35,105 nt of DNA from NCBI GenBank assembly GCA_001687465.1, contig LVLI01000087.1, forward strand, positions 1 through 35,105, in the 5' to 3' direction. Under the pieces are notes generated by a model. That model did no database searches. It had not been told where the DNA came from and worked only from the letters and a program-made list of their open reading frames with translations. The position numbers and the translations under genes were made by a program. The DNA is from Halocafeteria seosinensis (lineage: Eukaryota). Shown in pieces: positions 4,702 through 29,322 of this stretch; the stretch's first letter is position 1; the number at the start of each line of letters is the position of its first letter.

Positions 4702-4890
4702 AGGATTAACCCCAGACTCACAGGGATAACTCCCCAGCTCCCTATGGAACTAGGAAAAAATCCCCCATTATAATTTTTTAAATACAAATGTTACTTTATA
4801 TTTAAAATTACATTCAAAAGTTAATGTCAAAATGTTACTTTAAAAATTNCACTTAAAATTNCATTTCAAAATTATGTTCTGAAACGTTAC
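4702..4890 (+). repeat. Left terminal inverted repeat
   Basis: AGGATTAACCCCAGACTCACAGGGATAACTCCCCAGCTCCC...CTGAAACGTTAC matches the reverse complement of 29118-29322 with some mismatches and indels; starts with AG. Confidence 0.93.
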
Positions 4891-5508: not shown

Positions 5509-6495
5509 TTATTTAGCTGACGGTTGAATATCTCGAACCTGCTTCTCTGGTATCCATTGATTGAATTTTTCCGGAAATCCTACCCACTTTACTAAAACAA
5601 ACTTTTTTCCATTTATCTTTTTACGTTGTAAGACTTTTTCAACTAAAAATTCTTGCTGTTGTTTGGTTTTTTGTAGTTCCGGTTCGTGAAAGGTACCTTC
5701 AACGCGTTGACCGTCTAAATCTTGTAGCTTATAAGTTATGGGGTCTGTTCGCTTGACTTCTGCGATTTCAAATATTTCTTCTGACCACTTCACCCGAGTT
5801 CCTTTCTCAAAAATATTCTTCTTTTTTATTTTGCGTACTCTATCACCTTCTTTAAACTTAGGTTTCCTCTTTTTCTTCTTCTCAAGGTCTTCGGGAAAAA
5901 TATTAATAGGGTTAGCTCTGGCTTTTCCTTTGTAAACGTCTTTCGGTTTTGCTCCGACGGTAGAATGAACTGTAGTATTGTACTCTTTCACTAGTTCTGG
6001 CAAAACATCTAACCAATTAAAGTCTCGTTGATTTGAAAATTCTTCTTCCATTTTCTCCCGAAGAGTACGATTAAAGCGTTCTACAATAGAATTTTTGGTG
6101 CGTCCGGTTGTATTGTAGATTTGCATTCCTTCATCTTCCAGAAAATTGAGAACTTGTTGATTAAAAAATTCACTTCCTTTATCTACCCAAATAAAATTAG
6201 GTTTCTGCTTGACTTTCTTTAATAATTGCGTTAAGACTTCTACCATCTCAGAACCTTGTTTTGTTTTTAAGGGTAGAGCGAAAGCAAACCGACTATGAAG
6301 CTCAATAGCGTTCAGAATAAATCGGAAACCTCGGTTATCATCTTTCACATCTGACATATCTAGCAAATCTAAAGCAATGATATTATGTAAGCCTCCGGAG
6401 ATGACTTTTCGTCTCGGGAATTTACGTTTTACGCCTTTGAATAGTTCCTTGGTTAATTGACGAACTTCTGGATCGGCTTGTCTACGACTAGACAT
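5509..6495 (-). CDS. Retroviral-like (rve) DDE integrase with C-terminal chromodomain (Polinton-type)
   Basis: Catalytic triad in ALDLLDM, WVDKGSEF and SIVERFNRTL. Chromodomain FLVEKVL..KKFVLVKWVGFPEKFNQWIPE. Confidence 0.96.
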   Translation of the reverse strand: MSSRRQADPEVRQLTKELFKGVKRKFPRRKVISGGLHNIIALDLLDMSDVKDDNRGFRFILNAIELHSRFAFALPLKTKQGSEMVEVLTQLLKKVKQKPNFIWVDKGSEFFNQQVLNFLEDEGMQIYNTTGRTKNSIVERFNRTLREKMEEEFSNQRDFNWLDVLPELVKEYNTTVHSTVGAKPKDVYKGKARANPINIFPEDLEKKKKRKPKFKEGDRVRKIKKKNIFEKGTRVKWSEEIFEIAEVKRTDPITYKLQDLDGQRVEGTFHEPELQKTKQQQEFLVEKVLQRKKINGKKFVLVKWVGFPEKFNQWIPEKQVRDIQPSAK

Positions 6496-9500: not shown

Positions 9501-10670
9501 AAGGATAACTTGGTTTTCAAACTTTTTATAGACAGAGGCTTTAGAACGATGTCCTTTACTGACTTGTTCGCAAAAGAGCGACATTAAGATGGAGTATAAT
9601 CCACATTTTCCGTCCTTAGCTCCGGTAGGATTTAACAATCCACGATTCTTTTTCAAACATTGAGGAAGAGCCACATCATCACCATCACGCCCCTTCATAG
9701 GAGTGAAAGCAATTAAATTTATTTGAAGGTTATCTACCCATTCAAGAACCCATTGCGAGCCACCATCAAGTAATTCATCTTCTATTAAAAGAATGGTATT
9801 TTCAAGCTCACGAACAGTATCTTCAACCTCATTTGCGTTAAAAATAGGTTTAGCATTTTCTTTTCTAGAAGTGTTCAATAGAAAAGGTGTTCCACTTGAG
9901 GTTGTTGGACTTGCCACATTATAAAAGAAGGCATCTAGAGCCATTTGAATTTTTATATTTTGTTTCTTTTCTTGAAACTTTTTAACTTCATCAACGACTT
10001 TTGAGCGAACCACGTTAAAGAATTTTTTAGAGTCACCGATTAAAGGTTCAGTCGTAACTTTTAGACCTAAGTCAACATTTTTAAATCGTTTTCGCTCTTC
10101 AACTTTTACAGTATAATCGGTTTCTGCTAATTCTTGTTGAGCCTGAACTCTTTGAGCTATATTAGCTCTATCTTGTTGACGAAGAATAATTCTAGTTAAT
10201 TCACGGCGCAAATTCTCGGTTTTTTCAGTTAACTTAACTTTGCGGAGGATTTGGTTAGGGTTTTCTTGCTGAAGTTTGTTTAGCTCACGACTGTTAGAGG
10301 GTCTAGGGAATTGTCTAAGACGATTTTGTAGAGCTTGACGACTTAAACCCTGAACACCAGTTCCTTGTCGATTCAAGGCACGATTAACCGAAAATTTTCG
10401 GATAATCTCAGACCGAATATCTTCTGAAGGAGCAGTCAGACGGACACGGCTTAATCCTCTATTTTTCAATTCATTCAAACGATTTTTAAGCTCATTACGG
10501 TTTGCTTTCTTTATTGTGTCAATAAACTTCTCGGGCACCCCGTGGAGAAGAGGCTTCTTCTTGTTCAGTTCCTGACGAAGTTTATTCTTTTTGGAATTGA
10601 GGTTGATTCGGGTGAGACCTAGCTGTTTTAATTCTTTTAATTGATTTTGTAATTCTTTAAACTCATTCAT
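6513..10670 (-). CDS. polB: Protein-primed family B DNA polymerase with N-terminal extension, OTU-like region and endonuclease VII-like insert
   Basis: Exo motifs SDIES, FHNLKGYDSH, YLMTDTLLLAD. Pol motifs YVDANNLYG, KLMNNSIFGK, FSDTDS. Insert CYIC..HRDHCHLTGQYRGATHAGCN. First ATG at 10670 (track start 10682 is TTG). Confidence 0.97.
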   Translation of the reverse strand: MNEFKELQNQLKELKQLGLTRINLNSKKNKLRQELNKKKPLLHGVPEKFIDTIKKANRNELKNRLNELKNRGLSRVRLTAPSEDIRSEIIRKFSVNRALNRQGTGVQGLSRQALQNRLRQFPRPSNSRELNKLQQENPNQILRKVKLTEKTENLRRELTRIILRQQDRANIAQRVQAQQELAETDYTVKVEERKRFKNVDLGLKVTTEPLIGDSKKFFNVVRSKVVDEVKKFQEKKQNIKIQMALDAFFYNVASPTTSSGTPFLLNTSRKENAKPIFNANEVEDTVRELENTILLIEDELLDGGSQWVLEWVDNLQINLIAFTPMKGRDGDDVALPQCLKKNRGLLNPTGAKDGKCGLYSILMSLFCEQVSKGHRSKASVYKKFENQVILSDKKFKVNFPLQCPRDIERLEILNPWLSINVFTPVLEEQTEKNMRTRERLEEDFLRLSTLNPVRITKHQDRQHVNLLLYEDEVKDIYHYCSIKSLSSLLGANGNHARVYCSNCLQSFENNTALQEHQKDSCLKNPSARPIMPKKGEHYLKFSNFHKQLRLPFAIYSDIESSLVECHKQKGDNPQNILTHEHIPNSINAVLVSILPEFNEQVVFYSDTEGDCIIKYIDWLVEKEKELKDIVFNRYVPLQMSEEDEEHFFNATHCYICHKPLERNPHRDHCHLTGQYRGATHAGCNLNKKYKDRFIIPVIFHNLKGYDSHLLIKQLVDYSKTNNRKFNALPQNVEKFITFGLGRFRFVDSFAFMGSSIKNLVDNLKTKNDESLFANFNSYFSEYSQENIELLRQKGVYPYTWSNGDPKRMNYNALPPKSAFYNDLEEEEISDEDYEHAQKVWDRFGCQTFKDYHELYLMTDTLLLADVFEEFRNLCMKNYQLDPCWYLTAPALSWDAFLLNISGKYNIELFHEGQYEMLTFAEDGKRGGVSMISTKRYAKANNXYIPETYKPEENTSYLYYVDANNLYGWGMVQKLPAGGYAWENPEEFNKNFILNYDKNSSRGYFLKVKLRYPKELHDLHNDFPLAPENTKGEYSPHMKNIAEILGDKKNGNDNKLIPNLYDKDKYVVHIRNLQFYLEQGMELEKVYSVLGFRQEPFMKDYIELNSQLRMKAKDDFEKNLFKLMNNSIFGKTMENVRGYSNIKVCTSEEYHQKLTKKPTYKQSYIIENDKLVLLDMNKETIKFDKPILIGSSILDLSKLLMQDFHYNFIKPMYGNNANLCFSDTDSFCYHIQTKDLYKEIEPYKNSHFDFSDYPKDHFLYSTQNKKKVGFMKDETNSVPMSEFCGLRAKLYSFLTRDEENEKKAKGVKKAVVRKQIKHQDYVRSIFGTTAEEIQKTVKFKQISSFHHSVYTHQAVKSALSPLDDKRYVLGNGIDTLALGHYKTLEN

Positions 10671-10756
10671 TATATTATACAATATATAATATAAAATTCT
10701 TTAATAGTAACTTATTATGATTATAGAGAGTTATCAATCTTTTCTTCGTCTTTAAT

Positions 10757-12877: not shown

Positions 12878-13054
12878 TTACTTTAGGGTTGTCTTAGTAT
12901 ATTTCCTAATTACACCTGATAAATGCGGATGCCTCAATCGTATATGTCTTGTGATAGATTTAGGGTGAAGAGCCTTGTTACAAAATTGACAATTACTTTT
13001 GGGTGTTGCTTGTTTAGCTTCTACTCTTTCTAATTCTTCTTTTGAACCACTCAT
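12878..13054 (-). CDS. Small C2H2 zinc-finger protein, copy B (58 aa, not in ORF track)
   Basis: MSGSKEELERVEAKQATPKSNCQFCNKALHPKSITRHIRLRHPHLSGVIRKYTKTTLK; paralog of 13151-13345. Confidence 0.8.
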   Translation of the reverse strand: MSGSKEELERVEAKQATPKSNCQFCNKALHPKSITRHIRLRHPHLSGVIRKYTKTTLK

Positions 13055-13150
13055 TTCTTTCTATAATATATAGTAACTAAAAAGCTCTAAGTAAAAAATC
13101 TATGATTTTTCTATAATTAATCTATAGAAAAAATTCTTAAACTCAAACTT

Positions 13151-13345
13151 TTAATTGATTTTAGTTAAATCTTTTAGGACTGTATTTGCATATTTCCTGA
13201 TTGCGTCAGATAAATGAGGATGCTTCATTCTAATATGTCTTGCAATAGATTTAGGGTGAAGAGATTTATTACAGAATTGACAATTTGTTTTTGGTGCTTC
13301 TTGTTTAGCTTCTTGTCTTTCTAATTCTTCTTTACTTCCAGACAT
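13151..13345 (-). CDS. Small C2H2 zinc-finger protein, copy A
   Basis: CQFC..SLHPKSIARHIRMKH (CxxC...HxxxxH). Confidence 0.8.
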   Translation of the reverse strand: MSGSKEELERQEAKQEAPKTNCQFCNKSLHPKSIARHIRMKHPHLSDAIRKYANTVLKDLTKIN

Positions 13346-13409: not shown

Positions 13410-14231
13410 TTAATTAGGACGAGGAACAGCCCGAACTCCACCACTTGGTTTAAGACTAAACGTTTGCTGTTCATCATCATCATCGTCACCCTCATTCAGA
13501 AAACTTTCAAAAACTTCTAGCTTATGATTTTTGATGAGATTCTTCTCTTTAACCGGTAATGTTTTAATAGTAAAGAAAGTTGCTAAAGCTGGAATAGAAA
13601 CCGGATCACGTTTCGTTCTATAAATCGTGACTATATTTCTGAGACGACTGCTAAAAAGACTTTGAAGGATAGATTCAAAATTAGAAGCAGGATTAATAGC
13701 GTAAACACGGTCAACATTATTTTTATTTGTAGCAATAAATATACCCACGGCTGAGCCCAATGAGTGTCCCACAACTGAAATTTCAGAAGGATTAGTTGCG
13801 CTCACTATTTGATTAAACTGGCTTAAATTTCGTTGAAAACGTTGAGTGAAAAATTCCGGTTGAAAACTAGCAAATTGAATATCAGTTCCTACATCTTCAG
13901 CGTTTGCCGTTCCGCGAACAGCAACAAACAAATGATTAGAATCATCTAGATAAACAGCTAACTCATCAGTTGAGAAATTAGGAATAAGTTTAAAACCATC
14001 TACGTTTTCAGCTCTTTCATTTTGTGGACGATAAGCTTGATTCTCGAGTTTCATCGCAGTTTGTTCTATTGGACTTAATTCATCTACGGTATTTCGCTCA
14101 AAATTAAAGGTAGATTGTAAATCCTGACCAATTTTTTTAATACCTTGTCCACGATTCCCGAGCTGTCCAATAGGGTCACCACCTAGCCGAGCAATATCAC
14201 TTGCTAAACCTCCAATCTTTTTTAAGCTCAT
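13410..14231 (-). CDS. Class 3 lipase / alpha-beta hydrolase
   Basis: VAVRGT oxyanion region, GHSLG nucleophile elbow, DPVS acid and NHKL histidine. Confidence 0.9.
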   Translation of the reverse strand: MSLKKIGGLASDIARLGGDPIGQLGNRGQGIKKIGQDLQSTFNFERNTVDELSPIEQTAMKLENQAYRPQNERAENVDGFKLIPNFSTDELAVYLDDSNHLFVAVRGTANAEDVGTDIQFASFQPEFFTQRFQRNLSQFNQIVSATNPSEISVVGHSLGSAVGIFIATNKNNVDRVYAINPASNFESILQSLFSSRLRNIVTIYRTKRDPVSIPALATFFTIKTLPVKEKNLIKNHKLEVFESFLNEGDDDDDEQQTFSLKPSGGVRAVPRPN

Positions 14232-16436: not shown

Positions 16437-17912
16437 ATGGCACAAAATCCAGAACAGACAGATAGCGTACAGAACGCCAGAGCACCTCCGGCAACTATAT
16501 CTAGAACTCCAAATCAACTGTCAGATACTTCTCAAAACTTCTACTTCGATCCTAAGCTATGTCAGGAAAACTTCCAGATTTTAGATGATATTAATTCACG
16601 CGAAACAATTAGGACAGTTCCGCAAGCTGGTCGTGGACCTTATAAAGAGGGAGACGAAGTTTTGTTTAATTTACAATCTTCAGCTTCTCTTCTGGATCGT
16701 CAACAGACAAACATTAGGATGAAGATAAGAAATACAAGTAACTTGGATGGAGATGATAATCCATCATACGTTCTTTCAGATGGTGCTAATGTTCTTTTGG
16801 ATAATATGGAGCTGGAGTTAGGTGACCAAGTGGCAGAAAAAATTGAAGATGGAGCACGATATTTTCAACATTTAATTTTAGGGACTGTCAATCAAGGATG
16901 GTACGACCACGAAGCAAACGCACTAATGAGGAGTTGGAAATACCGAAGCTTTGCTAATAAATATGAAGTAAGGGTAGATGGTAACAGTGGTAATTGGAAA
17001 AATTTAGTTGGAAATGTTACTGTCGATGCTGATAAAAAATTAGAATTACGTGACCGTGATTTATTCCAATTTTCAGCAGATGAAATAGAATCAAACCCAC
17101 CCGGTAAATCTTTTTGGGTTATTGTTCACCCTGATAACTTAAGTTATTTCCGAGGTTCACGATTTGCTCCTCTATTTGTCAATAACACATTAAGAATTAA
17201 ACTACCCGAGGCTAAAAAGATTATGGAACCAAATTTAAACGCAAGTACAAGTGGAAACCCTAGCTATCAAATTGACAGTATTGAATTAATGGCTGAGCAC
17301 GTCTTCCCCTCATCAGAGCTTCTAAACAGTGTTCACGAAAGAATTTGTCGTTCTCCCTCTGGTTTAAGTATGGTTCTACCCAATTCTGCAGACTTATACC
17401 GAAGAGAATTAGGAAATCAAACACAACATAATATCACTATTTCGGCTAGTTATTCCAATATTCAAGGATTAGTTATGATGGTTTTCGACAAAGACATTGG
17501 TGAAAGCGTGGATAATATTGGGGAATGTCCTCTTCCTTCTTTAGAAAGTTATACTGTTTCTATCCAGACTCACGAACTGGGAACACGTGGTGGAGTCTTC
17601 ACCCTCCCCGAAGCCTATGCTAATTATAGAAAACACTATAACTTCTTATCTGATGTTTCTGGGCAAGGAATGTTAGACTATGAACGTTTTCAATTTAATC
17701 ATACTATTATGGCTGTTAACACTGATTTGCTTCCACACGCTCCACCTGAAGTTCTACAGAATAGCCTTTCAACCAATGATCGAGGGTCTCAGATTAATAT
17801 TGAACTGAATAATTCAGTTGCTGGAGAAACAAATAATAAACGACTGTATATTTGGGTAATCCACAAAAGAATCGCTCATTTAAGTAACGGAATGTCAAAA
17901 ATTGGAATCTAG
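16437..17912 (+). CDS. Putative double jelly-roll major capsid protein
   Basis: 491 aa, beta-rich. GDEVLFNL...LLDRQQTNIRMKI...LLDNMELELGDQVAEKIED resembles PLV MCP N-termini. Heads the structural gene block upstream of the ATPase. Confidence 0.75.
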   Translation: MAQNPEQTDSVQNARAPPATISRTPNQLSDTSQNFYFDPKLCQENFQILDDINSRETIRTVPQAGRGPYKEGDEVLFNLQSSASLLDRQQTNIRMKIRNTSNLDGDDNPSYVLSDGANVLLDNMELELGDQVAEKIEDGARYFQHLILGTVNQGWYDHEANALMRSWKYRSFANKYEVRVDGNSGNWKNLVGNVTVDADKKLELRDRDLFQFSADEIESNPPGKSFWVIVHPDNLSYFRGSRFAPLFVNNTLRIKLPEAKKIMEPNLNASTSGNPSYQIDSIELMAEHVFPSSELLNSVHERICRSPSGLSMVLPNSADLYRRELGNQTQHNITISASYSNIQGLVMMVFDKDIGESVDNIGECPLPSLESYTVSIQTHELGTRGGVFTLPEAYANYRKHYNFLSDVSGQGMLDYERFQFNHTIMAVNTDLLPHAPPEVLQNSLSTNDRGSQINIELNNSVAGETNNKRLYIWVIHKRIAHLSNGMSKIGI

Positions 17913-19558: not shown

Positions 19559-19560
19559 AA

Positions 19561-19635
19561 AGCTCAATGACGCCTCGGTCATTGTAGCGTCAGACTACAA
19601 GCTTAAAACCTCGCAATAGCTACAAGCGAGATTAA
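19561..19635 (+). repeat. Structured intergenic element, copy 2
   Basis: First 50 nt identical to copy 1; starts just after the upstream stop at 19558. Confidence 0.9.
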
Positions 19636-19675
19636 TTTACCTTTTAAATTAATCTATAGAATATAAGTAGATAAT

Positions 19676-20518
19676 ATGCCTTTAGAATTTGATTTGTTTT
19701 CAGGAAAACAAGGTGAAGTCCAAGAAGAGAAGAAGATTCCGGAAGAACTTCATTTCCCCTTTCGTTTTTGTATCGTAGGAAGTACCGGCACGGGTAAAAC
19801 CAACCTAATTAAAAATTTCATTTATAAACATTATAAAGATGTCTTGGACAAAGTTTTCTATTTCTCCGCCAAAACCAAAACCTTGAATCAAATTAAAGAA
19901 CAGCACGAGAAATCAAGCCCTAGTTTTGATTTGGAATTGTTTAGGAGTTTTGACGACTCTAGAGTGAAGCAATTGGTCGACCAAGAAGATGAGGCTGACA
20001 ACTCAGCGTTGTTTGTCTTTGATGATATGTTAAGCAAGAATGTCCTGAGTAAACAAAAGAACAATAGTATTGACCAGATTCTTCAAAATGGACGAGAAGC
20101 CGGTATGTCGGCTATAATTTCAGCTCAACGTTACGCAGATTTAAACCCAAATGCCAGAAGGGACAACTGCTCAGCTCTGATTCTTCTTGAGAGTCTTGGA
20201 GATAGTGAGATAAAACGTATCGTGGATGAGCAAAAAATCAACGTGACAAAAGAGAAACTAAAAAAATTAATGTCTGAACACACTGGAGGTGAAGACCATA
20301 AATTTTTGGTTATAGATTTCACGGAGCCAATCCAAGAAAGATTTAAAGATTCTACATTTGAAAAAATAGACTTGAATGAGGATAATCACGAAGTCATCAG
20401 AGGGAAAAAACCTAGAGAATTCAAAAATAAAGCTAAAGTAAAGAGAAAAAGCAAATGTCTGATAAAGAAGATGGTAAAAAATCATCCCGTAAATCCTGCG
20501 GAAAAAATATTGAATTAA
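19676..20518 (+). CDS. A32/FtsK-HerA family genome packaging ATPase
   Basis: Walker A GSTGTGKT, Walker B LFVFDD, and NGREAGMSAIISAQRY (A32-type GR..Q motif). Confidence 0.92.
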   Translation: MPLEFDLFSGKQGEVQEEKKIPEELHFPFRFCIVGSTGTGKTNLIKNFIYKHYKDVLDKVFYFSAKTKTLNQIKEQHEKSSPSFDLELFRSFDDSRVKQLVDQEDEADNSALFVFDDMLSKNVLSKQKNNSIDQILQNGREAGMSAIISAQRYADLNPNARRDNCSALILLESLGDSEIKRIVDEQKINVTKEKLKKLMSEHTGGEDHKFLVIDFTEPIQERFKDSTFEKIDLNEDNHEVIRGKKPREFKNKAKVKRKSKCLIKKMVKNHPVNPAEKILN

Positions 20519-20874
20519 TTTAGTTCGAGAGCCCGCCTGACGGGTCAGGTAAATTATTACAGGCTGAATTTAAAGTAAATGGAAAAGAAAAGACTATAGC
20601 TTTCGGTTCACAAGATCGGGAAACTTATGTTAATTCAAAAAACCTTGAAGCAAGGACAAAATTTATTGAAAAGTTTGGTAATAGAGAAAGTAATCCATTA
20701 AACCCTAAAACTTTAGAAAGGTGGTTGCTTAACGAAACACGCAACTTTAGAGACAATGTTCGAATCTTTCGTGATAAATTCAATATTGATAGAAAACTGA
20801 AGAAAGATCCGGAGGTTGGGACAAGAAGGAGAACAAAGAGGAAAAAGCGAAGACGAAAACGACGTGAAGATTAA
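20455..20874 (+). pseudogene. Tlr6F-like gene with one in-frame TAG (20521-20523)
   Basis: MSDKEDGKKSSRKSCGKNIELI*FESPPDGSGKLLQAEFKVNGKEKTIAFGSQDRETYVNSKNLEARTKFIEKFGNRESNPLNPKTLERWLLNETRNFRDNVRIFRDKF...RRRTKRKKRRRKRRED. The 'kt..FG....Y...k...R..y....p..p..l.RwlL' pattern fits Tlr6F. Confidence 0.7.
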
Positions 20875-20921
20875 GTTTTAAATTAAAAAAAAATTTTCTA
20901 TAATTATTTAATATAGAAAAA

Positions 20922-21551
20922 ATGACTTGTATCAATTGTGAGTCTGGTAATCTTGATTGGGTAGGGTATGAAATGATTTGCTGTAATTGCGGTTCTGTTC
21001 AACCAGATAATTATATAATTGAATTAGAAGAACTACCAAGTCTCTCACCCTCGCCGATTGAGCGGGCTATCGATTTTATCTCAACTCACAACTTTAGCAA
21101 ATATCTGAAAAGCTTAAGTGGAATTGAGACCAAGAACATTTCCGATAAATTTTTGGATGAGGTCAACGAATTCTTGTTTAGAAATAATCTAGATACTAAC
21201 CACGAAAACATCCTTAAATTTTTAAAAAGCAAACGATTATATTCGTTATATTCACATACTTCTGTCATTCATCATAAATTGACGGGGGAACCACAATACT
21301 ATATCCCTCCAGAGTTACGGGATGAATTAGTTGGAATGTTCAAGCGGATAGAAATTATTTGGGGTTATGTCAGACCTAGAAACCGGATTTATTTACCAAA
21401 TTATAGCTTTTTCTTAAGAAAGATGCTCTTCTTGAAAAATTACGACGATCTGGCTTATAAATTTACATCCGTCAGTTACAAGTCAGCTAAGAAAGTTAAA
21501 GAAACTGAGGATATTTGGTTACGAATTTGTCAAGAATTGAACTGGAGTTAA
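20922..21551 (+). CDS. VLTF3: VLTF3-like (poxvirus A2-type) late transcription factor
   Basis: N-terminal Zn ribbon CINC...CCNCG, then ILKFLK..LYSLYSH..IHHKLTG, RNRIYLPNYSFFLRKML and KSAKKVKETEDIWLRICQELNW. Confidence 0.9.
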   Translation: MTCINCESGNLDWVGYEMICCNCGSVQPDNYIIELEELPSLSPSPIERAIDFISTHNFSKYLKSLSGIETKNISDKFLDEVNEFLFRNNLDTNHENILKFLKSKRLYSLYSHTSVIHHKLTGEPQYYIPPELRDELVGMFKRIEIIWGYVRPRNRIYLPNYSFFLRKMLFLKNYDDLAYKFTSVSYKSAKKVKETEDIWLRICQELNWS

Positions 21552-21599: not shown

Positions 21600-22127
21600 A
21601 TGGATGTTATCTATGAACAACAAGAATACTTTAAAACTATTCCTCACTTTCCTGAGTATCAAGTTTCTACTTATGGTAGAGTTTATAGTACAAAATCAGG
21701 TAGAATGTTAACACTTGGAAATAATCGTGGTTATTTTGAAGTTAAGTTTCACTATTCTGGAAAAAATTATATTAGAGGGGTACATCGTCTAGTTGGACAA
21801 ACTTTTTATGGACTTGAAAAATTGGAAGGAAAGCAAATTGATCACAAAAACAATATTAGAAATGATAATCGTCTATCAAACTTGCGAATTTGTACTAGAC
21901 CGGAAAATTTATATAATACTGGAAAGAGAAGTGATAATTCTTCTGGCTACAAAGGAGTAGGATACCGAAAAGGACGTAAATATCAGAAAAACCCTTGGCA
22001 CGCAAGAATAATTTTTAATGGTAAAAGACATATTCTAGGTTATTTTCCAACTGCTGAACGAGCCTATGAAGCTTATAAGGAAAAAGCTAAAGAAGTTCAC
22101 GGAGAATTTTATCACTATAATGATTAG
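21600..22127 (+). CDS. NUMOD4-HNH-AP2 homing endonuclease
   Basis: FPEYQVSTYGRVYS, VHRLVG, IDHKNNIRNDNRLSNLR, SGYKGV..WHARI..LGYFPTAERAYEAY. Confidence 0.92.
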   Translation: MDVIYEQQEYFKTIPHFPEYQVSTYGRVYSTKSGRMLTLGNNRGYFEVKFHYSGKNYIRGVHRLVGQTFYGLEKLEGKQIDHKNNIRNDNRLSNLRICTRPENLYNTGKRSDNSSGYKGVGYRKGRKYQKNPWHARIIFNGKRHILGYFPTAERAYEAYKEKAKEVHGEFYHYND

Positions 22128-22161: not shown

Positions 22162-23964
22162 ATGAGTGGAACAATACGATTACATCACCAAACATCTGGT
22201 GGCTTGGCTGGGACAACAAAGGTTCACAAAGGGCTTAACGTAAGTAACGGAAGATTAAGTGTAGATTCTGGTTCCGGTCTTGCTTTTAACAATGACAATA
22301 AACTCGTTAATGAATGGTATAATGTTTCAGACGGTTCTAACCTTGATATGAACTCTAACCGAATCACTAATTTGGCAAATCCAACCGGTTCAGGTGATGC
22401 TACTACTAAGAGTTATATTGATAATCAAGTTAGCGTTCCTCAGCTAAGGAAAGGTGCTAGAGCCTACTATAGTTTTGATGATAGTAGTGAGCCTTATGCT
22501 GATTCAGTGGGACAATATGATGGACGAGCAGTAGGTGGAATAACTATTACAAACAGCGGGAAAATTGGAAGTGCTGTTGAATTTGATGGAAATCAATCTT
22601 ATGTTGAACTCCCAAACAATGCGTTTGACGTAGCAGGAAGCGACTTTTCCTTTTCCTTTTGGGCTTATGTAAAACTTACAAGTTCAGCTCAAATTCTTAT
22701 GGTTAGTCAAACGGATCAAGACAACAGATTGTTAATTACACAAGAAAGCGGTGATTATATCCGAATATTTACTAGTTCAGGAGGGACAGAGAAAGAAGTT
22801 CAATCGTCAACTTTATCAGGAAATACGTGGTATCATTTTGTTATCGTTGGACAAGGTACAACAGGTACAATTTATGTAAACGGAACACAAGACGCAACGG
22901 GAACAATATTTAATGATGCTACAATGACTGGTTCTACTTCGTTGGTTGGTATTGATAATCAAAACGCATTGTCCAACGGCTACCGCATAGATAAATTCGG
23001 TTTGTGGAATCGTGTTTTAACTGGAGATGAAATTGATTTTCTATATAATGGAGGAAATGGAACAAATAATTGGCAAGATACCTATTTAGCCACCAAGGGT
23101 GAAGTCACACAATTACGTCAATATACCAACGCATTGGCGGGACTTCCACAACTGAGACGTTCAGCGAGAGCCTATTATAGTTTTGATGGAAATGACCCTT
23201 ATGCTGATTCGTTTGGGACATATGATGGAACAAATAATGGGGTGAGTCAGAGCAATACAGCCAAAATTGGAAAATCTATTGAATTTAGCGCAGATGGTCA
23301 ATATGTAGACATCGGTCAAGCTCTAAAATTTGGAACGGGAGACTTTGCTGTTAGTTGTTGGTTTTATCCAACACAAACATCCAGCAGTAGCCACGACATA
23401 ATGTGGGGAACTGATGAAACAGGAGATGGCTTTAGGGCATTTGGTCTTTTTAATGATGATCAAACAATTGAATTCTTTACAACAGATGGTTCGACGGCAA
23501 AAAAAGTCATTACAAACACAACTGTAGCCCTAAATACGTGGCATTTTATTACGATGACACGTTCGGGTGGAACAGGTCAGATATATATTAACGGTTCGCT
23601 AGAAACGTTCGGAACAGTACGTAGCGATAATATTGCAAGTTCAGATATTACTTATATTGGAATCCCGGGCTCAAGTCATTCACCCCGTGGATTTATTGAT
23701 GAATTCGGTGCGTGGTCTCGAGTTCTATCGCAAGATGAAATCGTATATCTCTACAATAATGGTAACGGCACGAATGATTTTCAGAGTTTTGATTGGTATT
23801 CTCGTCCCGCACAAAGCAATGTTGATATGAATGGTAATTCAATAACCAATGGACAGGATATCACAACCAAACAACTCTTCCTAACCAATCTTCCGACGAG
23901 TGACCCTCTAGTTGCTGGTCAAGTTTGGAATAACAGTGGAGTATTGAACATTTCAAGCGGTTAA
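22162..23964 (+). CDS. Fibre / receptor-binding protein with two LamG (concanavalin A-like) domains
   Basis: Two repeats of AYYSFD...KIG.(A/S)(V/I)EF...NTW(Y/H)..F...IY(V/I)NG...ID.FG.W.RVL...EI..LYN.GNG, flanked by LDMNSNRITNLANPT..DATTKSYID fibre motifs. Confidence 0.85.
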   Translation: MSGTIRLHHQTSGGLAGTTKVHKGLNVSNGRLSVDSGSGLAFNNDNKLVNEWYNVSDGSNLDMNSNRITNLANPTGSGDATTKSYIDNQVSVPQLRKGARAYYSFDDSSEPYADSVGQYDGRAVGGITITNSGKIGSAVEFDGNQSYVELPNNAFDVAGSDFSFSFWAYVKLTSSAQILMVSQTDQDNRLLITQESGDYIRIFTSSGGTEKEVQSSTLSGNTWYHFVIVGQGTTGTIYVNGTQDATGTIFNDATMTGSTSLVGIDNQNALSNGYRIDKFGLWNRVLTGDEIDFLYNGGNGTNNWQDTYLATKGEVTQLRQYTNALAGLPQLRRSARAYYSFDGNDPYADSFGTYDGTNNGVSQSNTAKIGKSIEFSADGQYVDIGQALKFGTGDFAVSCWFYPTQTSSSSHDIMWGTDETGDGFRAFGLFNDDQTIEFFTTDGSTAKKVITNTTVALNTWHFITMTRSGGTGQIYINGSLETFGTVRSDNIASSDITYIGIPGSSHSPRGFIDEFGAWSRVLSQDEIVYLYNNGNGTNDFQSFDWYSRPAQSNVDMNGNSITNGQDITTKQLFLTNLPTSDPLVAGQVWNNSGVLNISSG

Positions 23965-23978
23965 TTATAAATTTATCT

Positions 23979-24049
23979 AGTTACCGCGTTGCCTCGAACC
24001 CTGTAACAGCTTCTACAAGCGAGTTAAACCACGTAACAGCTACAAGCTA
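23979..24049 (+). repeat. Structured intergenic element, divergent copy
   Basis: GTTACCGCGTT-GCCTCG-AACCCTGTAAC hairpin with the same loop, then CTACAAGC, AAACCACG and GCTACAAGC motifs. Confidence 0.75.
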
Positions 24050-24082
24050 TTATTAATAAAATTATTATTATTAATATAGGAA

Positions 24083-25600
24083 ATGAGTTATATTTTCAGT
24101 AACTTAGGAGATTCTAAATTTTTGCCCGCTCAAAAAGGGTTTATTCTGGAAACAGAAGACGAAGACCATCATCCTCCCGATCGTTGGTATGAACATCCCG
24201 CCCAAGATAACGTTGATTTAAACTCAAATAAAATTACTAATCTAGGTGCTCCCTCCGGTGATGATGATGCGGTTAATCTTGTACATTTAGAAAGCAATTA
24301 TTTTTCGTCGAACGAGGCTAACAATCTTTTTCTTAGTGTTGACGGAAGCAATAGTATGAACGCGGGTCTTGATTTGAACTCTAACAAAATTGTTAATTTG
24401 AATGACCCTACTGAGCTAAACGATGCTGTAAATCTAAATCATTTAAGTAGTAATTATTACCAATCTTCAACCGTTGACAGTGATTTTTTACAAGTTAGTG
24501 GGGGTAATTCTATGAACTCGAATCTTGATTTGAGTTCGAACAAGGTTGTCAACTTATCAAATCCGGTTGATTCTACCGATGGGGTTAACCTATCTCATTT
24601 ACAAACCAATTACTACACATCTTCCGAGACCGATAACCAATTTCTTCAAGTTGATGGGTCTAACGCTATGACCAACAATTTAGATTTAAATTCTAATAAA
24701 ATTGTTAACTTATCTAATCCGGTTAATTCTAACGATGCCGTTAATCTGGATTATTTGACAGTTAATTATTATTCCTCTTCTGCCACTGATAACCGCTTTC
24801 TTCAAGTAGACGGCTCCAATTCAATGGAGAACAACTTAAATTTAAACTCTAATAAAATTGTTAATTTAGCTAATCCAGTTAATTCGGGTGATGCCGTCAA
24901 TAAAACTGAAGCTGACAGCACTTATTTAAAAATCAACGGTAGCACTCCTATGGCTGGAAACCTAAATATGGATACTAACCAAATTACTAATATGGGTAAT
25001 CCTACTGATTCAAACGATGGGGTTAACAAGACTTTCGCTGAATCAAACTATCTCTTGTTAGATGGTACTAATTCTATGAATGCTAATCTCGACGTAGGTC
25101 TGAACAAAGTAGTAGGAGTGAATAACCCCTCCAATAATAAAGATGGGGTAAATCTTCAGTATTTGACTACCAATACCAAAAATAAAGTTCAACACTTTAA
25201 AAATTCTGGAAGTGTGTTTTTGGACGGTAGTGATAATGAAGAAGAAATTGTTGACGACTTTTTCCTAGATGCTAATCAAACTTATATCGTGTTTGCTAAA
25301 TTTTGGACTTGGGACGTACCAAATAATCTAGGAGGTGGTGGAAGTCGTCTAGAACATTATCGTGATTTAAACATTATTGATCCATACGGCGGGTTTTGGT
25401 TAGATGACGACCGATTTAGTCATTTTGAAACCAATGGGTTATTATCTTTCTACGGTCATTATACTACTACAATTACCACTGATGGTACCGGCGCTGAGAC
25501 TTGGAAAGTTCGATTAGTAAACCTTTCCAGTAATAGTTTTACTGCGACTCTACAGCACGAAATGGAATTTTTACCAATTGGAAGTGTAAGTGAAATATAA
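24083..25600 (+). CDS. Fibre protein with ~52-aa tandem repeats, paralog 1
   Basis: Repeated FLQVDGSNSM..NLDLNSNKIVNL.NPV.S.DAVNL..L..NYY.SS units and a distinct C-terminal head. Confidence 0.85.
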   Translation: MSYIFSNLGDSKFLPAQKGFILETEDEDHHPPDRWYEHPAQDNVDLNSNKITNLGAPSGDDDAVNLVHLESNYFSSNEANNLFLSVDGSNSMNAGLDLNSNKIVNLNDPTELNDAVNLNHLSSNYYQSSTVDSDFLQVSGGNSMNSNLDLSSNKVVNLSNPVDSTDGVNLSHLQTNYYTSSETDNQFLQVDGSNAMTNNLDLNSNKIVNLSNPVNSNDAVNLDYLTVNYYSSSATDNRFLQVDGSNSMENNLNLNSNKIVNLANPVNSGDAVNKTEADSTYLKINGSTPMAGNLNMDTNQITNMGNPTDSNDGVNKTFAESNYLLLDGTNSMNANLDVGLNKVVGVNNPSNNKDGVNLQYLTTNTKNKVQHFKNSGSVFLDGSDNEEEIVDDFFLDANQTYIVFAKFWTWDVPNNLGGGGSRLEHYRDLNIIDPYGGFWLDDDRFSHFETNGLLSFYGHYTTTITTDGTGAETWKVRLVNLSSNSFTATLQHEMEFLPIGSVSEI

Positions 25601-25601
25601 A

Positions 25602-25675
25602 AGCTCAATGACGCCTCGGTCATTGTAGCGTCAGACTACAAGCTTAAAACCACGAAAAGCTACAAGCGAGATTAA
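25602..25675 (+). repeat. Structured intergenic element, copy 3
   Basis: Near-identical to copy 1; starts just after the stop at 25600. Confidence 0.9.
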
Positions 25676-25714
25676 GCATTTTTTCTTTATAAAAGAAAGC
25701 ATCTATTATAAAGA

Positions 25715-27253
25715 ATGTCATATATTTCAAGTAACGTTTCATCTAATATTAGTCTAGGTAGAAAAGGTTATATTTTTGAGCTTGAAGATGAAGATGTTCA
25801 TCCTCCAGAAGAATGGTATAAACATCCCGCTGGGGAGAATATAGATTTAGCTGGAAATCGTTTAATAAATTTAAGCACAGCTAGTTTAGGTGATGAAGCT
25901 GTCACATTAAATTATCTTCAGAGTAATTTCGACACCGATTTAAATTTAGAAGAAAAATTTCTTCAGTTGGACGGAAATAATAGCTTAAACGCTAATCTTG
26001 ATATGAATTCAAACAAAATCCTTAATTTAGGTAATCCGGTTGATTCCGGAGATGGGGTTAATCTGGGTTATTTACAGAGCAATTACTATACATCGTCAAC
26101 CGTTGACAGTGATTTTCTACAGGTTAGCGGGGGTAATTCTATGAGTAGTAGTCTTGATTTGAGTTCGAACAAGGTTGTCAACCTAGCTACTCCAGTTGAT
26201 TCTGGAGATGGGATTAATCTAGACTATTTGACGGTTAATTATTATTCCTCTACGGGTGCTGATAATCGGTTCCTTCGGGTTGATGGAACGAATCCAATGG
26301 AAAATAACTTAAATTTGAATTCTAATAAGATTACTGGTTTAGCTAATCCAATTGATTCTGTGGATGGGGTGAGTCTAAATTATTTGGAAAACAACTACTA
26401 CTCTTCCACTGAGGCAGATAATCAATTCATTCAAGTTGACGGGGCTAATGCTATGAACAATAATTTAGATTTAGCAAATAATAGAATCGTTGATTTAGCA
26501 GATCCAACAGACTTAAACGATATAGCCACAAAAAATTATCTAGAGGCTGATTTTGTTAATTTGTCGGGGGATACAATGGCAAATAATTTAATTTTAGGTG
26601 GGAATAGAATTACGAGTGTGTCCGGTTCCTCAGACCTAGCTACTTTAGACTATGGAAATCTAACTTTTCCTCGGTTGGATGGGACAAATACTTTTGGAGC
26701 TAACCTTTCAGTCGGTGATAATAAAATCGTCAATTTGGGTAATGCTAGTAATGACAGAGATTTAGTTAATCTGGAGACGTTCAACAATCAAACAACAAGT
26801 TTTCCACGAGAAATTTCTCACTTCAGTTTTGAAGAAACGGATGTAACCATAAACAACGGCACCACATACGATTCATCTGTTACTAAAACCTTGTCTAAAA
26901 ATACAGATTATTTAGTATTTGTTCGCATATTTTCAGTTGGTGTAAATTCGGGCGTTAGTAGCGAATTTTATATGTTACATAAAATTAATGGTAATTCAAC
27001 TGACCCGTGGAGTTTTACAGGGGCTTATAAAGGAATCGATCTTTCAAAAAAAGCCACTTCCTATTTTGAAAGCGCTAGCGGAATTCATTTCACAGGGTAT
27101 TACTACACAACCCTAAGCGTTGGAACAAGCAATAACGTTTCTTTCAATCTTCAAATTGTCAACGATTCCGGAAGTAATCAAACAATTAATAGGATAACTC
27201 AAAATATTCATCTGCTAAAAATTGACGGGGTTGAAGAAATTTCATTAGCTTAA
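25715..27253 (+). CDS. Fibre protein with ~52-aa tandem repeats, paralog 2
   Basis: Shares the N-terminus (MSYI.SN..KG.I.E.EDED.HPP..WY.HPA) and shaft repeats with 24083-25600; divergent C-terminal head. Confidence 0.85.
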   Translation: MSYISSNVSSNISLGRKGYIFELEDEDVHPPEEWYKHPAGENIDLAGNRLINLSTASLGDEAVTLNYLQSNFDTDLNLEEKFLQLDGNNSLNANLDMNSNKILNLGNPVDSGDGVNLGYLQSNYYTSSTVDSDFLQVSGGNSMSSSLDLSSNKVVNLATPVDSGDGINLDYLTVNYYSSTGADNRFLRVDGTNPMENNLNLNSNKITGLANPIDSVDGVSLNYLENNYYSSTEADNQFIQVDGANAMNNNLDLANNRIVDLADPTDLNDIATKNYLEADFVNLSGDTMANNLILGGNRITSVSGSSDLATLDYGNLTFPRLDGTNTFGANLSVGDNKIVNLGNASNDRDLVNLETFNNQTTSFPREISHFSFEETDVTINNGTTYDSSVTKTLSKNTDYLVFVRIFSVGVNSGVSSEFYMLHKINGNSTDPWSFTGAYKGIDLSKKATSYFESASGIHFTGYYYTTLSVGTSNNVSFNLQIVNDSGSNQTINRITQNIHLLKIDGVEEISLA

Positions 27254-29117: not shown

Positions 29118-29322
29118 GTAACGTTTCAGTTCATAAATTTTAAAGTGAAATTTTTAACATTAACTTTTAAGTGAAATTTTTAAAGTAACATTTTGAATTA
29201 ACTTTTGAATGTAATTTTAAATATAAAGTAACATTTGTATTTAAAAAATTATAATGGGGAGTTTTCTCCTAGTTCTGTAGGGAGCTGGGGAGTTATCCCT
29301 GTGAGTCTGGGGTTTGAATCCT
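29118..29322 (-). repeat. Right terminal inverted repeat
   Basis: Ends ...GGGAGCTGGGGAGTTATCCCTGTGAGTCTGGGGTTTGAATCCT, the reverse complement of the left TIR. Confidence 0.93.

What the first reader, a model, noticed from the sequence alone, without database searches (positions are those of the whole stretch)
20922..21551. VLTF3 late transcription factor in an element with no RNA polymerase
Seen: an intact VLTF3-like ORF within the structural block. Known: VLTF3 is a near-universal nucleocytovirus marker acting with the viral transcription apparatus and is not part of the canonical Polinton core. Inference: it redirects host Pol II or a co-infecting giant-virus polymerase to the element's late promoters.
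Basis: partly seen in the sequence, partly recalled or inferred. Interest (0 to 1): 0.8.

Follow-up and report, generated by a model that had tools for sequence, protein, structure and literature searches.

The report
VLTF3 gene in a Polinton-like virus
A small virus-like mobile element with its own DNA polymerase and integrase, but no RNA polymerase, carries an intact short copy of the giant-virus transcription factor VLTF3, which likely steers a borrowed RNA polymerase to the element's own promoters; the same gene has already been reported in related small viruses, so this is a new example and not a new kind.

Summary
ORF 20922-21551(+) encodes a 209-aa protein that matches Pfam Pox_VLTF3 (70.6 bits, cut-off 25). 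Its AlphaFold model (pLDDT 88.7) matches VLTF3 proteins of many giant viruses. It lies in a low-GC element with ~170-nt terminal inverted repeats. The element also carries an rve-chromodomain integrase, a protein-primed PolB, an A32 ATPase, a lipase, fibre genes and four homing-endonuclease-like genes. No RNA polymerase domain was found.

VLTF3 without a viral RNA polymerase is already in print for Tetraselmis and Phaeocystis Polinton-like viruses, about 30% of two "Zephyrvirus" clusters, mriyaviruses, chloroviruses and ariadnaviruses. The nearest relative of this lineage probably also has VLTF3 next to its ATPase.

New here:
- The protein belongs to a short-form clade (209-221 aa).
- The family has a TFIIB-type zinc ribbon plus a cyclin-like domain whose best structural matches are TFIIB, Brf1 and Brf2.
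- A TATAG/TATAAAG word lies within 30 nt upstream of 16 of 24 gene starts, against 5% of the other ATGs.

Best reading: an element-encoded, TFIIB-like initiation factor, more likely for host Pol II than for a helper giant-virus polymerase. This is untested. Verdict: a new member of a known kind, of modest interest.

The parts
20922..21551 (+). Short-form VLTF3 gene (209 aa): an N-terminal CxxC...CxxC zinc ribbon (C3, C6, C20, C23) followed by a helical VLTF3 core
   Evidence: ORF. Pfam PF04947 at 70.6 bits. Model and BFVD matches. All 11 positions conserved in >=90% of the 52-sequence alignment are present: C6 C20 C23 L101 Y110 F140 R155 Y161 K167 W199 C203.
20886..20921 (+). Palindromic promoter-like word directly upstream of VLTF3 (TTTTCTATA, a spacer, then TATAGAAAAA followed by ATG)
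   Evidence: Inverted and direct repeat families I6, D9, D11 and D16. TTTTCTATA occurs 13 times against 1.29 expected. Upstream sequences listed.
4704..4873 (.). Left terminal inverted repeat
   Evidence: the repeat finder gives arms 4708-4873 and 29149-29314, 166 nt, 84% complementary. Read by eye, the arms extend to 4704 and 29320.
29149..29320 (.). Right terminal inverted repeat. Low-GC DNA found only in run X1 continues beyond it to about 31024-31053.
   Evidence: GC profile. An X1 contig covers 29326-31053 at depth 33.3 with no differences, while X2 and X3 have zero depth there.
5509..6495 (-). Retrovirus-type integrase with a C-terminal chromodomain
   Evidence: Pfam rve 33.5 bits (cut-off 32.6); Chromo 29.7 bits (cut-off 25.1).
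6513..10682 (-). 1389-aa protein-primed family B DNA polymerase with a long N-terminal extension and an endonuclease-VII-like zinc finger
   Evidence: Motif-like strings FHNLKGYD (703), YVDANNLYGW (963), NSIFGK (1129) and FSDTDS (1224). The Atlas search of residues 947-1389 gave 23 of 30 named hits in clusters carrying PF03175, with scores up to 0.98. Pfam itself gave no polymerase hit. Endonuclease_7 scored 22.7 bits, below its 23.6 cut-off.
13410..14231 (-). Class 3 lipase-like gene
   Evidence: Pfam Lipase_3 24.0 bits (cut-off 22).
16437..17912 (+). Candidate major capsid protein (491 aa); not proven
   Evidence: The Atlas nearest clusters are viral, some with DJR-like_dom (10% of members) or Capsid_N (24%); lead only, recognition 1851. 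Five homologues at 54-57% identity. The AlphaFold model was too poor to use, pLDDT 46.8.
19676..20518 (+). A32-type DNA-packaging ATPase
   Evidence: Pfam Pox_A32 37.3 bits (cut-off 22.8). Homologue P0178 at 64% identity carries PF04665.
21600..22127 (+). HNH_3/NUMOD4 homing-endonuclease-like gene directly behind VLTF3
   Evidence: Pfam HNH_3 48.9 bits and NUMOD4 34.8 bits.
22162..27253 (+). Three fibre-like genes (22162-23964 with two Laminin_G_3 domains; 24083-25600 and 25715-27253 with a T7 tail-fibre-like segment and 156-nt tandem repeats)
   Evidence: Pfam; repeat families D1-D3.
12878..13345 (-). Two paralogous small C2H2-like zinc-finger genes (58 and 64 aa) in a 291-nt duplication; possible further regulators
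   Evidence: ORFs. Repeat D4. Only weak, sub-threshold C2H2-type Pfam hits.

Best explanation
ORF 20922-21551 encodes a short-form VLTF3 carried by a ~24.6-kb TIR-bounded Polinton-like virus that has its own protein-primed DNA polymerase, integrase and packaging ATPase but no RNA polymerase. The protein likely works as the element's own TFIIB-like initiation factor and would recruit a borrowed multisubunit RNA polymerase, most probably host Pol II in the nucleus, to the TATAG(A)-type word that lies 8-21 nt before most of the element's start codons.

Shown by calls or by the sequence:
- family membership and fold of the protein;
- gene content and TIRs of the element;
- enrichment and position of the promoter word;
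- the TFIIB-type ribbon and the cyclin-like domain.

Inferred:
- that VLTF3 binds the polymerase through the ribbon and promoter DNA through the helical domain;
- that the polymerase is Pol II;
- that the TATAG word is the site it serves.
For: Identity. Pfam PF04947 at 70.6 bits. 37 BFVD structural matches at E<=1e-3, nearly all VLTF3. All 11 positions conserved in >=90% of the family alignment are retained.

TFIIB-like build. A profile of the 52-sequence VLTF3 alignment hits the TFIIB zinc ribbon 1pft_A at E 6.2e-5. Of the 52 members, 21 match Pfam Zn_Ribbon_TF (TFIIB ribbon; best E 3.2e-8) and 8 match the ribbon of Rrn7, the Pol I TFIIB-like factor. VIA-align of the model against 48,161 chains puts TFIIB (5iy6_M: Z 7.4, rmsd 3.4, 96 aligned) first. 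Brf2 (8ity_V, Z 7.0), yeast TFIIB (7o4i_M, 6.4), Brf1 (6cnb_R, 6.3) and the TFIIB core (5wh1_A, 6.1) are also among the top 9; cyclins fill most of the rest.

Promoter word. TATAG is the most enriched 5-mer in the 40 nt upstream of genes (11 of 20 genes, 1.22 expected) and TATAGA the most enriched 6-mer (8 of 20, 0.55 expected). TATAG or TATAAAG lies within 30 nt upstream of 16 of 24 gene starts, mostly 8-14 nt from the ATG, against 29 of 582 other ATGs in the element. VLTF3's own gene carries the word in a palindromic double form.

Long retention. Two homologues of the same length (209 and 210 aa) at 51% and 48% identity form a clade with the window protein (SH-aLRT 99). The nearest ATPase homologue probably shares a 3015-nt contig with one of them (inference).

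Pol II over a viral polymerase, from papers. Chloroviruses encode no RNA polymerase, move to the nucleus, and express VLTF2 and VLTF3 early (PMC7019647 passages). Ariadnaviruses lost the RNA polymerase but kept TFIIB, VLTF2 and VLTF3 (preprint 10.64898/2026.08.29.747986 passages). Mriyaviruses lack an RNA polymerase, keep VLTF2/3, and are inferred to be nuclear (PMC11253617 passages). The element's integrase with a chromodomain also points to a nuclear phase.
Against: No transcript, binding or polymerase data exist for this element.

The structural similarity to TFIIB is middling. The tool itself warns that Z below 8, or below about 13 for helical proteins, may reflect only a common arrangement, and only about 96 of about 167 domain residues align. 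Foldseek found no significant PDB match. The window protein's own TFIIB-ribbon hit is weak (E 0.22).

A promoter word only 8-14 nt before the ATG, AT-rich intergenic DNA and hairpin-bearing repeats behind three structural genes resemble giant-virus and virophage gene organisation more than a classical Pol II TATA box. By recalled knowledge, a TATA box sits about 30 nt before the transcription start.

Tetraselmis PLVs that carry VLTF3 are reported to be reactivated by a giant virus (abstract and legend of preprint 10.1101/2025.10.09.676808).

Integration is seen only in the window's own assembly. No target-site duplication was found, and no run contig listed bridges a TIR-flank junction.
Confidence: 0.5

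Rival explanations
1. Virophage-type use. The element is expressed in the factory of a co-infecting giant virus, and its divergent VLTF3 redirects the helper's RNA polymerase from the helper's late promoters to the element's TATAG promoters.
For: Gene organisation: the promoter word lies 8-14 nt before the ATGs, there are no long leaders, the element is low in GC, and GC-rich hairpin repeats sit directly behind three structural genes. Mavirus-type virophages have the same pPolB + rve integrase + TIR layout and use the helper's late promoter 'TCTA' (PMC8547959 passage; PMC10945749 passages). The palindromic form of the word here contains TCTA. Giant-virus infection reactivates Tetraselmis PLVs whose maps include VLTF3 (preprint 10.1101/2025.10.09.676808, abstract and legend). 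The element is present in one of three runs of the same organism, as expected for a mobile element or one that can be reactivated.
Against: A helper giant virus brings its own VLTF3, so a virophage needs none, and the papers read here describe virophages as using the helper's factors. Every VLTF3-bearing lineage without an RNA polymerase in the papers read is inferred to be nuclear. The mimivirus-type early word AAAATTGA is not enriched (8 found, 6.23 expected). No giant-virus sequence is present in the window.
Confidence: 0.3
2. Interference. The element's VLTF3 is a decoy that competes with a giant virus's own VLTF3 and blocks its late transcription, so that the integrated element protects its host.
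For: The protein keeps the zinc ribbon and core but lacks the roughly 200-aa N-terminal extension that most homologues carry (median length 392 among the best 150 hits). Endogenous virophages are reported to protect Cafeteria populations from CroV (PMC10945749 passages).
Against: This is pure inference and nothing here tests it. The gene carries the same promoter word as the element's other genes. That fits a role in the element's own expression at least as well.
Confidence: 0.08
3. Passenger gene. VLTF3 was picked up from a giant virus and has no role in the element.
For: PLV gene content is highly variable, and only about 30% of Zephyrvirus VC123/126 genomes carry VLTF3. The element holds other selfish cargo in the form of four homing-endonuclease-like genes.
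Against: The ORF is intact and all family-conserved positions are kept. Same-length homologues at about 50% identity form a well-supported clade on a long stem (1.15 substitutions per site), so the lineage is old and constrained. The nearest giant-virus-type homologues are only about 30% identical. The GC content and the promoter word match the rest of the element.
Confidence: 0.07

Closest known systems
Integrated Polinton-like virus elements of Tetraselmis (TsV-N1-like; Chase et al. 2022, PMC9356565)
   Same: These are integrated, TIR-bearing PLVs whose shared genes include ATPase, capsid proteins, lipase and VLTF3. One group (G4) uses a protein-primed DNA polymerase (passages). The best structural match of the window's VLTF3 is the VLTF3-like protein of Tetraselmis virus 1, a giant virus of that host genus.
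   Different: No cytosine methylase was found here. This element adds an rve-chromodomain integrase, four homing-endonuclease-like genes and three fibre genes.
'Zephyrvirus' PLVs, clusters VC123/VC126 (preprint 10.64898/2026.06.19.733378)
   Same: Genomes of about 25 kb. Replication genes include pPolB. VLTF3 is present in about 30% of members and lipase-domain ORFs in about 50% (section 6 read).
   Different: Membership there is defined by MCP profiles that I could not run. Their lipase sits in a very large ORF of up to 7.5 kb, whereas here it is a 273-aa protein. The preprint states that no endogenous examples were found, whereas this element sits between cellular-looking flanks.
Mavirus and endogenous mavirus-like elements (EMALEs) of Cafeteria
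   Same: pPolB + rve integrase + packaging ATPase + TIRs, low GC, insertions that differ between host strains, and one short promoter word upstream of the genes (PMC8547959 and PMC10945749 passages).
   Different: The passages read do not mention a VLTF3 in these elements. No adenain-type protease and no virophage-type capsid gene was recognised here. The promoter word here is TATAG(A), not simply TCTA.
Mriyaviruses (Yaraviridae, 'Gamadviridae'; PMC11253617)
   Same: Small genomes without an RNA polymerase that keep VLTF3, an A32 ATPase and a double-jelly-roll capsid gene.
   Different: Mriyaviruses have a HUH endonuclease, VLTF2, Mriya_48 and a helicase-primase, and lack both a DNA polymerase and an integrase. 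This element has pPolB and an rve integrase and no detected HUH domain.
VLTF3 of giant viruses that lack an RNA polymerase (chloroviruses, ariadnaviruses)
   Same: VLTF3 is retained without a viral polymerase, which implies that it can act with host nuclear transcription.
   Different: Those genomes are far larger and also encode TFIIB, TFIIS and/or VLTF2. In the hit set, the proteins outside the window's short-form clade are mostly longer (median 392 aa among the best 150 hits) and only about 30% identical to the window protein.

Membership tests
Pox_VLTF3 (PF04947; NCVOG0262) | Profile match above the curated threshold over most of the domain | tested here: met
   70.6 bits against a cut-off of 25; profile positions 13-166 of 168.
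Pox_VLTF3 (PF04947; NCVOG0262) | N-terminal four-cysteine zinc ribbon (A2L/TFIIB type) | tested here: met
   C3, C6, C20 and C23 are present in the sequence. C6, C20 and C23 are >=90% conserved in the 52-sequence alignment. The window protein's own Pfam ribbon hits are weak (Zn_Ribbon_TF E 0.22, A2L_zn_ribbon E 2), but 21 of 52 and 12 of 52 relatives match these ribbons.
Pox_VLTF3 (PF04947; NCVOG0262) | Predicted fold like that of recognised VLTF3 proteins | tested here: met
   37 BFVD matches at E<=1e-3. They include VLTF3 of Tetraselmis virus 1, pandoraviruses, marseilleviruses, pithoviruses, ASFV B385R, entomopoxvirus and cowpox virus, with TMq up to 0.70.
Pox_VLTF3 (PF04947; NCVOG0262) | Activates late-gene transcription | not testable with these tools
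   Needs transcription assays; the vaccinia A2L function is recalled, not tested.
Polinton/Maverick (Polintoviricetes) | Protein-primed family B DNA polymerase | tested here: inconclusive
   Pfam gave no PF03175 hit, even at E<=10. Polymerase-like motif strings are present (motif definitions recalled). The Atlas search gave 23 of 30 named hits in PF03175-bearing clusters. I accept it as a pPolB.
Polinton/Maverick (Polintoviricetes) | Retrovirus-type (rve) integrase | tested here: met
   rve 33.5 bits (cut-off 32.6) plus a Chromo domain.
Polinton/Maverick (Polintoviricetes) | Adenain-type capsid maturation cysteine protease | tested here: not met
   No Peptidase_C5 or other protease domain in any element ORF of >=100 aa. 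The weak Ulp1-like hit (E 0.0088) lies in the flank at 34378-35004, outside the element.
Polinton/Maverick (Polintoviricetes) | Double-jelly-roll major capsid protein and penton protein | tested here: inconclusive
   The candidate at 16437-17912 has Atlas leads only, and its model was too poor to search with (pLDDT 46.8). No penton candidate was identified.
Polinton/Maverick (Polintoviricetes) | TIRs with a short target-site duplication | tested here: inconclusive
   TIRs of about 170 nt at 84% identity are present. No duplication is visible at 4704 and 29320, and the right boundary is uncertain.
Polinton-like viruses (PLV, loose sense) | 15-40 kb, A32 ATPase plus capsid genes, variable replication and integration genes, often TIRs | tested here: met
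   About 24.6 kb between the TIR ends, with ATPase, pPolB, rve integrase, lipase and fibre genes. The capsid gene is inferred only.
Mriyaviricetes | HUH endonuclease, VLTF2, Mriya_48; no DNA polymerase or integrase | tested here: not met
   No HUH domain in the Pfam scans, and a pPolB and an integrase are present. VLTF2 and Mriya_48 were not specifically searched.
Virophages (Maveriviricetes) | Dependence on a giant virus; virophage-type MCP and protease | not testable with these tools
   No expression or co-infection data. The capsid gene is unclassified and no protease was found by Pfam.
TFIIB family (works-like comparison) | Zinc ribbon, then linker, then cyclin-fold core | tested here: inconclusive
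   Ribbon: the family profile hits TFIIB 1pft_A at E 6.2e-5, and 21 of 52 members hit PF08271. Core: TFIIB, Brf2, Brf1 and cyclins lead the VIA-align list at Z 6.1-7.4, which the tool calls middling. No Pfam TFIIB-repeat hit was seen.

The most novel reading that the evidence does not exclude
VLTF3 is a stripped-down TFIIB paralogue (ribbon plus one cyclin-like domain). This element belongs to a separate, old short-form lineage of VLTF3 that lives in small Polinton-like viruses and not in giant viruses. VLTF3 would then not be diagnostic of Nucleocytoviricota. A pPolB + integrase + A32 + VLTF3 virus would resemble the proposed small ancestor of giant viruses. This copy would also be a host-linked, endogenous representative of a VLTF3-bearing PLV group for which the preprint read here reports no endogenous example and no known host.
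Probability: 0.2. Interest if true: 0.6.

Novelty: new member of a known kind. Interest (0 to 1): 0.35.

Why it matters
VLTF3 is used as a hallmark of giant viruses, and one paper read here calls it diagnostic of that phylum (PMC11253617 passage). Other papers draw it in the genome maps of small Polinton-like viruses. A clear case adds to the evidence that the factor works without a viral polymerase and circulates among small viruses: an intact, conserved, short VLTF3 in an element with a protein-primed polymerase and an integrase, between cellular-looking flanks. The short form, the TFIIB-like build and the sharply placed promoter word make this element a compact system for asking what VLTF3 actually binds. 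That question is still open even for poxviruses (my recollection). The finding also bears on whether giant viruses inherited VLTF3 from small ancestors or small viruses captured it from them. An unrooted, unlabelled tree cannot decide this.

Tried and rejected
1. Searches for related loci all came back empty. I used the VLTF3, the candidate MCP, the ATPase alignment, a PLV-sized VLTF3 subgroup, P0055 and P0046 against viral contigs and metagenome contigs. A 52-sequence alignment was too diverse for the tool. I therefore could not survey VLTF3 in related elements myself; that point rests on papers and on the contig-length coincidence.
2. The word-based protein search with VLTF3 found nothing. 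tblastn against the phage collection found nothing.
3. No whole genome is held for this window.
4. The MCP structure model was poor (pLDDT 46.8), so I made no fold search of it. Pfam and PHROGs gave nothing for the candidate capsid gene or for the other unknown ORFs.
5. Foldseek against the PDB gave no match at E<=1e-3 for VLTF3.
6. The sub-threshold rpo30_N hit in ORF 11842-12270 was dismissed because the protein has no cysteine ribbon.
7. The mimivirus-type early word AAAATTGA is not enriched (8 found, 6.23 expected).
8. Sequencing runs: no RNA holder is listed, so nothing can be said about expression. The contigs listed break at the repeats and do not bridge a TIR-flank junction, so integration was not confirmed independently.
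9. Yutin et al. 2015 (PMC4642659): the main text has no occurrence of 'VLTF', 'transcription factor' or 'late transcription'. The attribution of VLTF3 to that paper is therefore taken from PMC9356565 only; its figures and supplements were not seen.
10. Three literature searches found no paper describing VLTF3 as TFIIB-like: VLTF3+TFIIB+cyclin (15 papers, 10 listed, titles and abstract openings only); VLTF-3+TFIIB-like (0 papers); VLTF3+TFIIB-like (1 paper, in which the two terms are unrelated). Subscription literature was not searched.
11. Earlier notes of this scan hold nothing near this place or like this sequence.
Full report
**Observation.** The ORF is real and sits exactly where stated: 20922..21551 on the + strand, ATG to stop, 209 aa.
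- It matches Pfam Pox_VLTF3 (PF04947) at E 1.7e-19 and 70.6 bits against a curated cut-off of 25, covering profile positions 13-166 of 168.
- An exhaustive HMMER search of 1.84 billion representative proteins returned 906 hits at E<=1e-3, 84 at <=1e-10 and 2 at <=1e-30.
- I aligned the window protein with 51 of the 150 listed hits. All 52 of 52 sequences in that alignment match Pox_VLTF3.
- The window protein keeps all 11 positions that are conserved in >=90% of that alignment: C6, C20, C23, L101, Y110, F140, R155, Y161, K167, W199, C203.
- AlphaFold2 on the same alignment gave a confident model (pLDDT 88.7, pTM 0.72).
- Foldseek against predicted viral structures gave 37 matches at E<=1e-3, nearly all annotated as VLTF3. 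The best is Tetraselmis virus 1 at E 2e-10 and TMq 0.68. Pandoraviruses, a phaeovirus, marseilleviruses, pithoviruses, ASFV B385R, entomopoxvirus and cowpox virus follow.

**The element.**
- GC is 27-40% from about 5 kb to 31 kb, against 42-50% in the flanks.
- Inverted repeats of 166 nt at 84% identity lie at 4708-4873 and 29149-29314. Read by eye, they extend to 4704 and 29320.
- Between them Pfam finds:
  - an rve integrase with a chromodomain (5509-6495, minus strand);
  - a class-3 lipase;
  - a Pox_A32 packaging ATPase (19676-20518);
  - three HNH_3/NUMOD4-type genes and one GIY-YIG endonuclease-like gene;
  - three fibre-like genes.
- The 1389-aa ORF (6513-10682, minus strand) had no Pfam polymerase hit. 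It carries polymerase-like motif strings (motif definitions recalled). In the Atlas search of its last 443 residues, 23 of 30 named neighbours are clusters bearing PF03175. I accept it as a protein-primed PolB.
- ORF 16437-17912 is a candidate capsid gene on Atlas leads only. Its structure model failed (pLDDT 46.8).
- No protease and no RNA polymerase domain was found in any ORF. One sub-threshold rpo30_N hit was dismissed.

The element is therefore a Polinton-like virus with pPolB and integrase, not a full classical Polinton.

**Integration status.**
- One public run (X1) holds the element. Two other runs of the same coded organism do not.
- The flanks 1-4648 and from about 31024 onward are present in all three runs, often at high depth.
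- The element's 3' part from 28696, and 29326-31053 beyond the right TIR, are covered only in X1, at depths of about 10-53 outside the TIR bin.
- TIR-like ends occur at higher depth, and in other contexts, in all three runs.
- This fits a family of mobile elements with an insertion that differs between samples.
- Two caveats apply. No contig listed bridges a junction, and I saw no target-site duplication. The right boundary is also uncertain, because low-GC, X1-only DNA continues about 1.7 kb past the right TIR.

**Relatives of the VLTF3.**
- Only two proteins are close: P0002 (209 aa, 51% identity) and P0003 (210 aa, 48%). Both come from metagenome contigs of about 3 kb.
- All other hits are about 30% identical and mostly much longer. 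The median length of the best 150 is 392 aa, and the extra length lies N-terminal to the region matched by the query.
- I built a quick maximum-likelihood tree (LG+G4) of the matched domain with 149 rows: the window plus 148 of the 150 hits. Two hits were dropped because their matched stretch was under 150 aa.
  - The window, P0002 and P0003 form a clade (SH-aLRT 99) on a long stem of 1.15 substitutions per site.
  - Its sister is a pair of short proteins, P0055 (214 aa) and P0144 (221 aa) (SH-aLRT 94).
  - All five sit in a 15-row clade (SH-aLRT 80) of mostly short forms, 209-430 aa.
- The longest contigs on record for the other 14 members of that clade are all <=25.6 kb. By contrast, one long-form hit outside that clade has a 562-kb contig. 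This is weak evidence, because metagenome contigs are mostly short.
- The tree carries no organism labels and is unrooted, so it cannot show who gave the gene to whom.
- The only ATPase homologue found (P0178, 64% identity) comes from the same sources as P0002 and also has a longest contig of 3015 nt. I infer that the two genes are neighbours in that relative too.

**What is already in print.**
- VLTF3 is listed among the genes shared by integrated Tetraselmis PLV elements, together with lipase, ATPase and capsid genes. One group of those elements uses a protein-primed polymerase (PMC9356565, passages).
- VLTF3 appears in the genome-map legends of giant-virus-inducible Tetraselmis PLVs (preprint 10.1101/2025.10.09.676808) and of Phaeocystis PLVs (preprint 10.1101/2022.07.28.501842).
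- It is reported in about 30% of Zephyrvirus VC123/VC126 genomes. These are about 25 kb and may carry pPolB and lipase domains (preprint 10.64898/2026.06.19.733378, sections 5 and 6 read).
- Mriyaviruses, chloroviruses and ariadnaviruses all lack an RNA polymerase and keep VLTF3.
- The mriyavirus paper nevertheless states that VLTF2/3 homologues were not detectable outside Nucleocytoviricota, so the literature is not fully consistent.

'VLTF3 without an RNA polymerase' is therefore a known pattern. This element is a further, fairly divergent example.

**Mechanism.** Two new lines of evidence bear on it.

*Architecture.*
- The family's N-terminal ribbon is of the TFIIB type. The alignment profile hits the TFIIB ribbon 1pft_A at E 6.2e-5.
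- Of the 52 members, 21 match Pfam Zn_Ribbon_TF and 8 match the ribbon of Rrn7, the Pol I TFIIB-like factor.
- An exhaustive structural comparison puts TFIIB, Brf2, Brf1 and cyclins at the top for the helical domain (Z 6.1-7.4, about 96 residues aligned).
- The tool itself rates these Z values as middling, and Foldseek saw nothing significant in the PDB. I treat a TFIIB-like build as likely, not shown.

*Promoters.*
- TATAG is the most enriched 5-mer in the 40 nt upstream of genes (11 of 20 genes, 1.22 expected).
- TATAG or TATAAAG lies within 30 nt of 16 of 24 gene starts, mostly 8-14 nt from the ATG, against 29 of 582 other ATGs in the element.
- VLTF3, ORF 12335-12826, ORF 28067-28303 and ORF 28352-28681 carry a palindromic double form, TTTTCTATA...TATAGAAAA.

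*Reading.* I conclude that VLTF3 most likely acts as an element-encoded, TFIIB-like initiation factor for these promoters. The papers read here infer a nuclear, host-polymerase-dependent life for every VLTF3-bearing lineage without an RNA polymerase, and a helper giant virus would bring its own VLTF3. I therefore favour host Pol II (about 0.5) over a helper-virus polymerase (about 0.3). The close spacing of the word to the ATG, the TCTA core of the palindrome (compare the CroV/mavirus late promoter) and the hairpin repeats behind structural genes keep the virophage reading alive.

**Verdict.** The element is a new member of a known kind (a VLTF3-bearing Polinton-like virus), of modest interest. 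It would matter more if the short-form clade proves to be an old lineage of small viruses, or if the TFIIB-like reading of VLTF3 holds up.

Noticed in passing
window 20524-20874 (+): A 116-aa open frame without an ATG, GTG or TTG start fills the gap between the ATPase stop and the VLTF3 promoter, in a different frame from the ATPase. It ends in a very basic tail (RRRTKRKKRRRKRRED) and has a weak, sub-threshold DUF5754 hit (E 0.0034). It could be a frameshifted gene, a gene with an unusual start, or an assembly error; the window contains 13 Ns.
   Followed up: partly
window 17945-18029, 19552-19636, 25593-25677: A GC-rich repeat of about 85 nt (75-92% identity) sits directly behind the stop codons of three + strand genes of the morphogenetic block (candidate capsid gene 16437-17912, ORF 18062-19558, fibre-like gene 24083-25600). 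It contains a conserved hairpin, GCUCAAUGAC-loop-GUCAUUGUAGC. The fold z-scores are modest (-1.3 to -2.5). It may be a signal for 3'-end formation.
   Followed up: partly
window 12878-13054 (-) and 13151-13345 (-): Two paralogous small genes (58 and 64 aa) with a CxxC...HxxxH zinc-finger pattern lie in a 291-nt tandem duplication. The first has the TATAG word upstream; the second has a TATAAAT variant. They may be additional DNA-binding regulators of the element.
   Followed up: partly
window 21600-22127 (+); also 4887-5447 (-), 15856-16368 (+), 27452-28021 (+): The element carries three HNH_3/NUMOD4-type genes and one GIY-YIG homing-endonuclease-like gene. One HNH gene lies directly behind VLTF3. 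Earlier notes of this scan describe homing nucleases inserted at the 3' end of VLTF3 in giant viruses. I did not look for a displaced VLTF3 end here.
   Followed up: no
window 29321-31053: Low-GC DNA that is present only in the run carrying the element continues about 1.7 kb beyond the right TIR. It contains a C-terminal fragment of a NADH dehydrogenase subunit (29612-29917; Pfam NADHdh E 3.4e-28) and an ORF with a weak SMC-hinge hit. It may be captured organelle DNA, a second inserted element, or an assembly join.
   Followed up: partly
window 4699-4848 and 29124-29337: The TIR regions have several-fold higher contig depth than the laid parts of the element next to the right TIR. TIR-like ends with different neighbours occur in all three runs of the organism, which suggests a family of related elements at other loci.
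   Followed up: partly
window 24329-24893 and 25958-26522: The two T7-tail-fibre-like genes contain 156-nt (52-aa) tandem repeats, three copies each, and a 68-nt repeat unit is shared with the Laminin_G_3 fibre gene.
   Followed up: no
window 6513-10682 (-), residues about 350-365 and 650-690: The polymerase's N-terminal extension contains a DGKCGLYS string that recalls the catalytic-cysteine motif of OTU proteases (recalled; no Pfam hit). It also contains an endonuclease-VII-like zinc finger (22.7 bits, just below the 23.6 cut-off).
   Followed up: no
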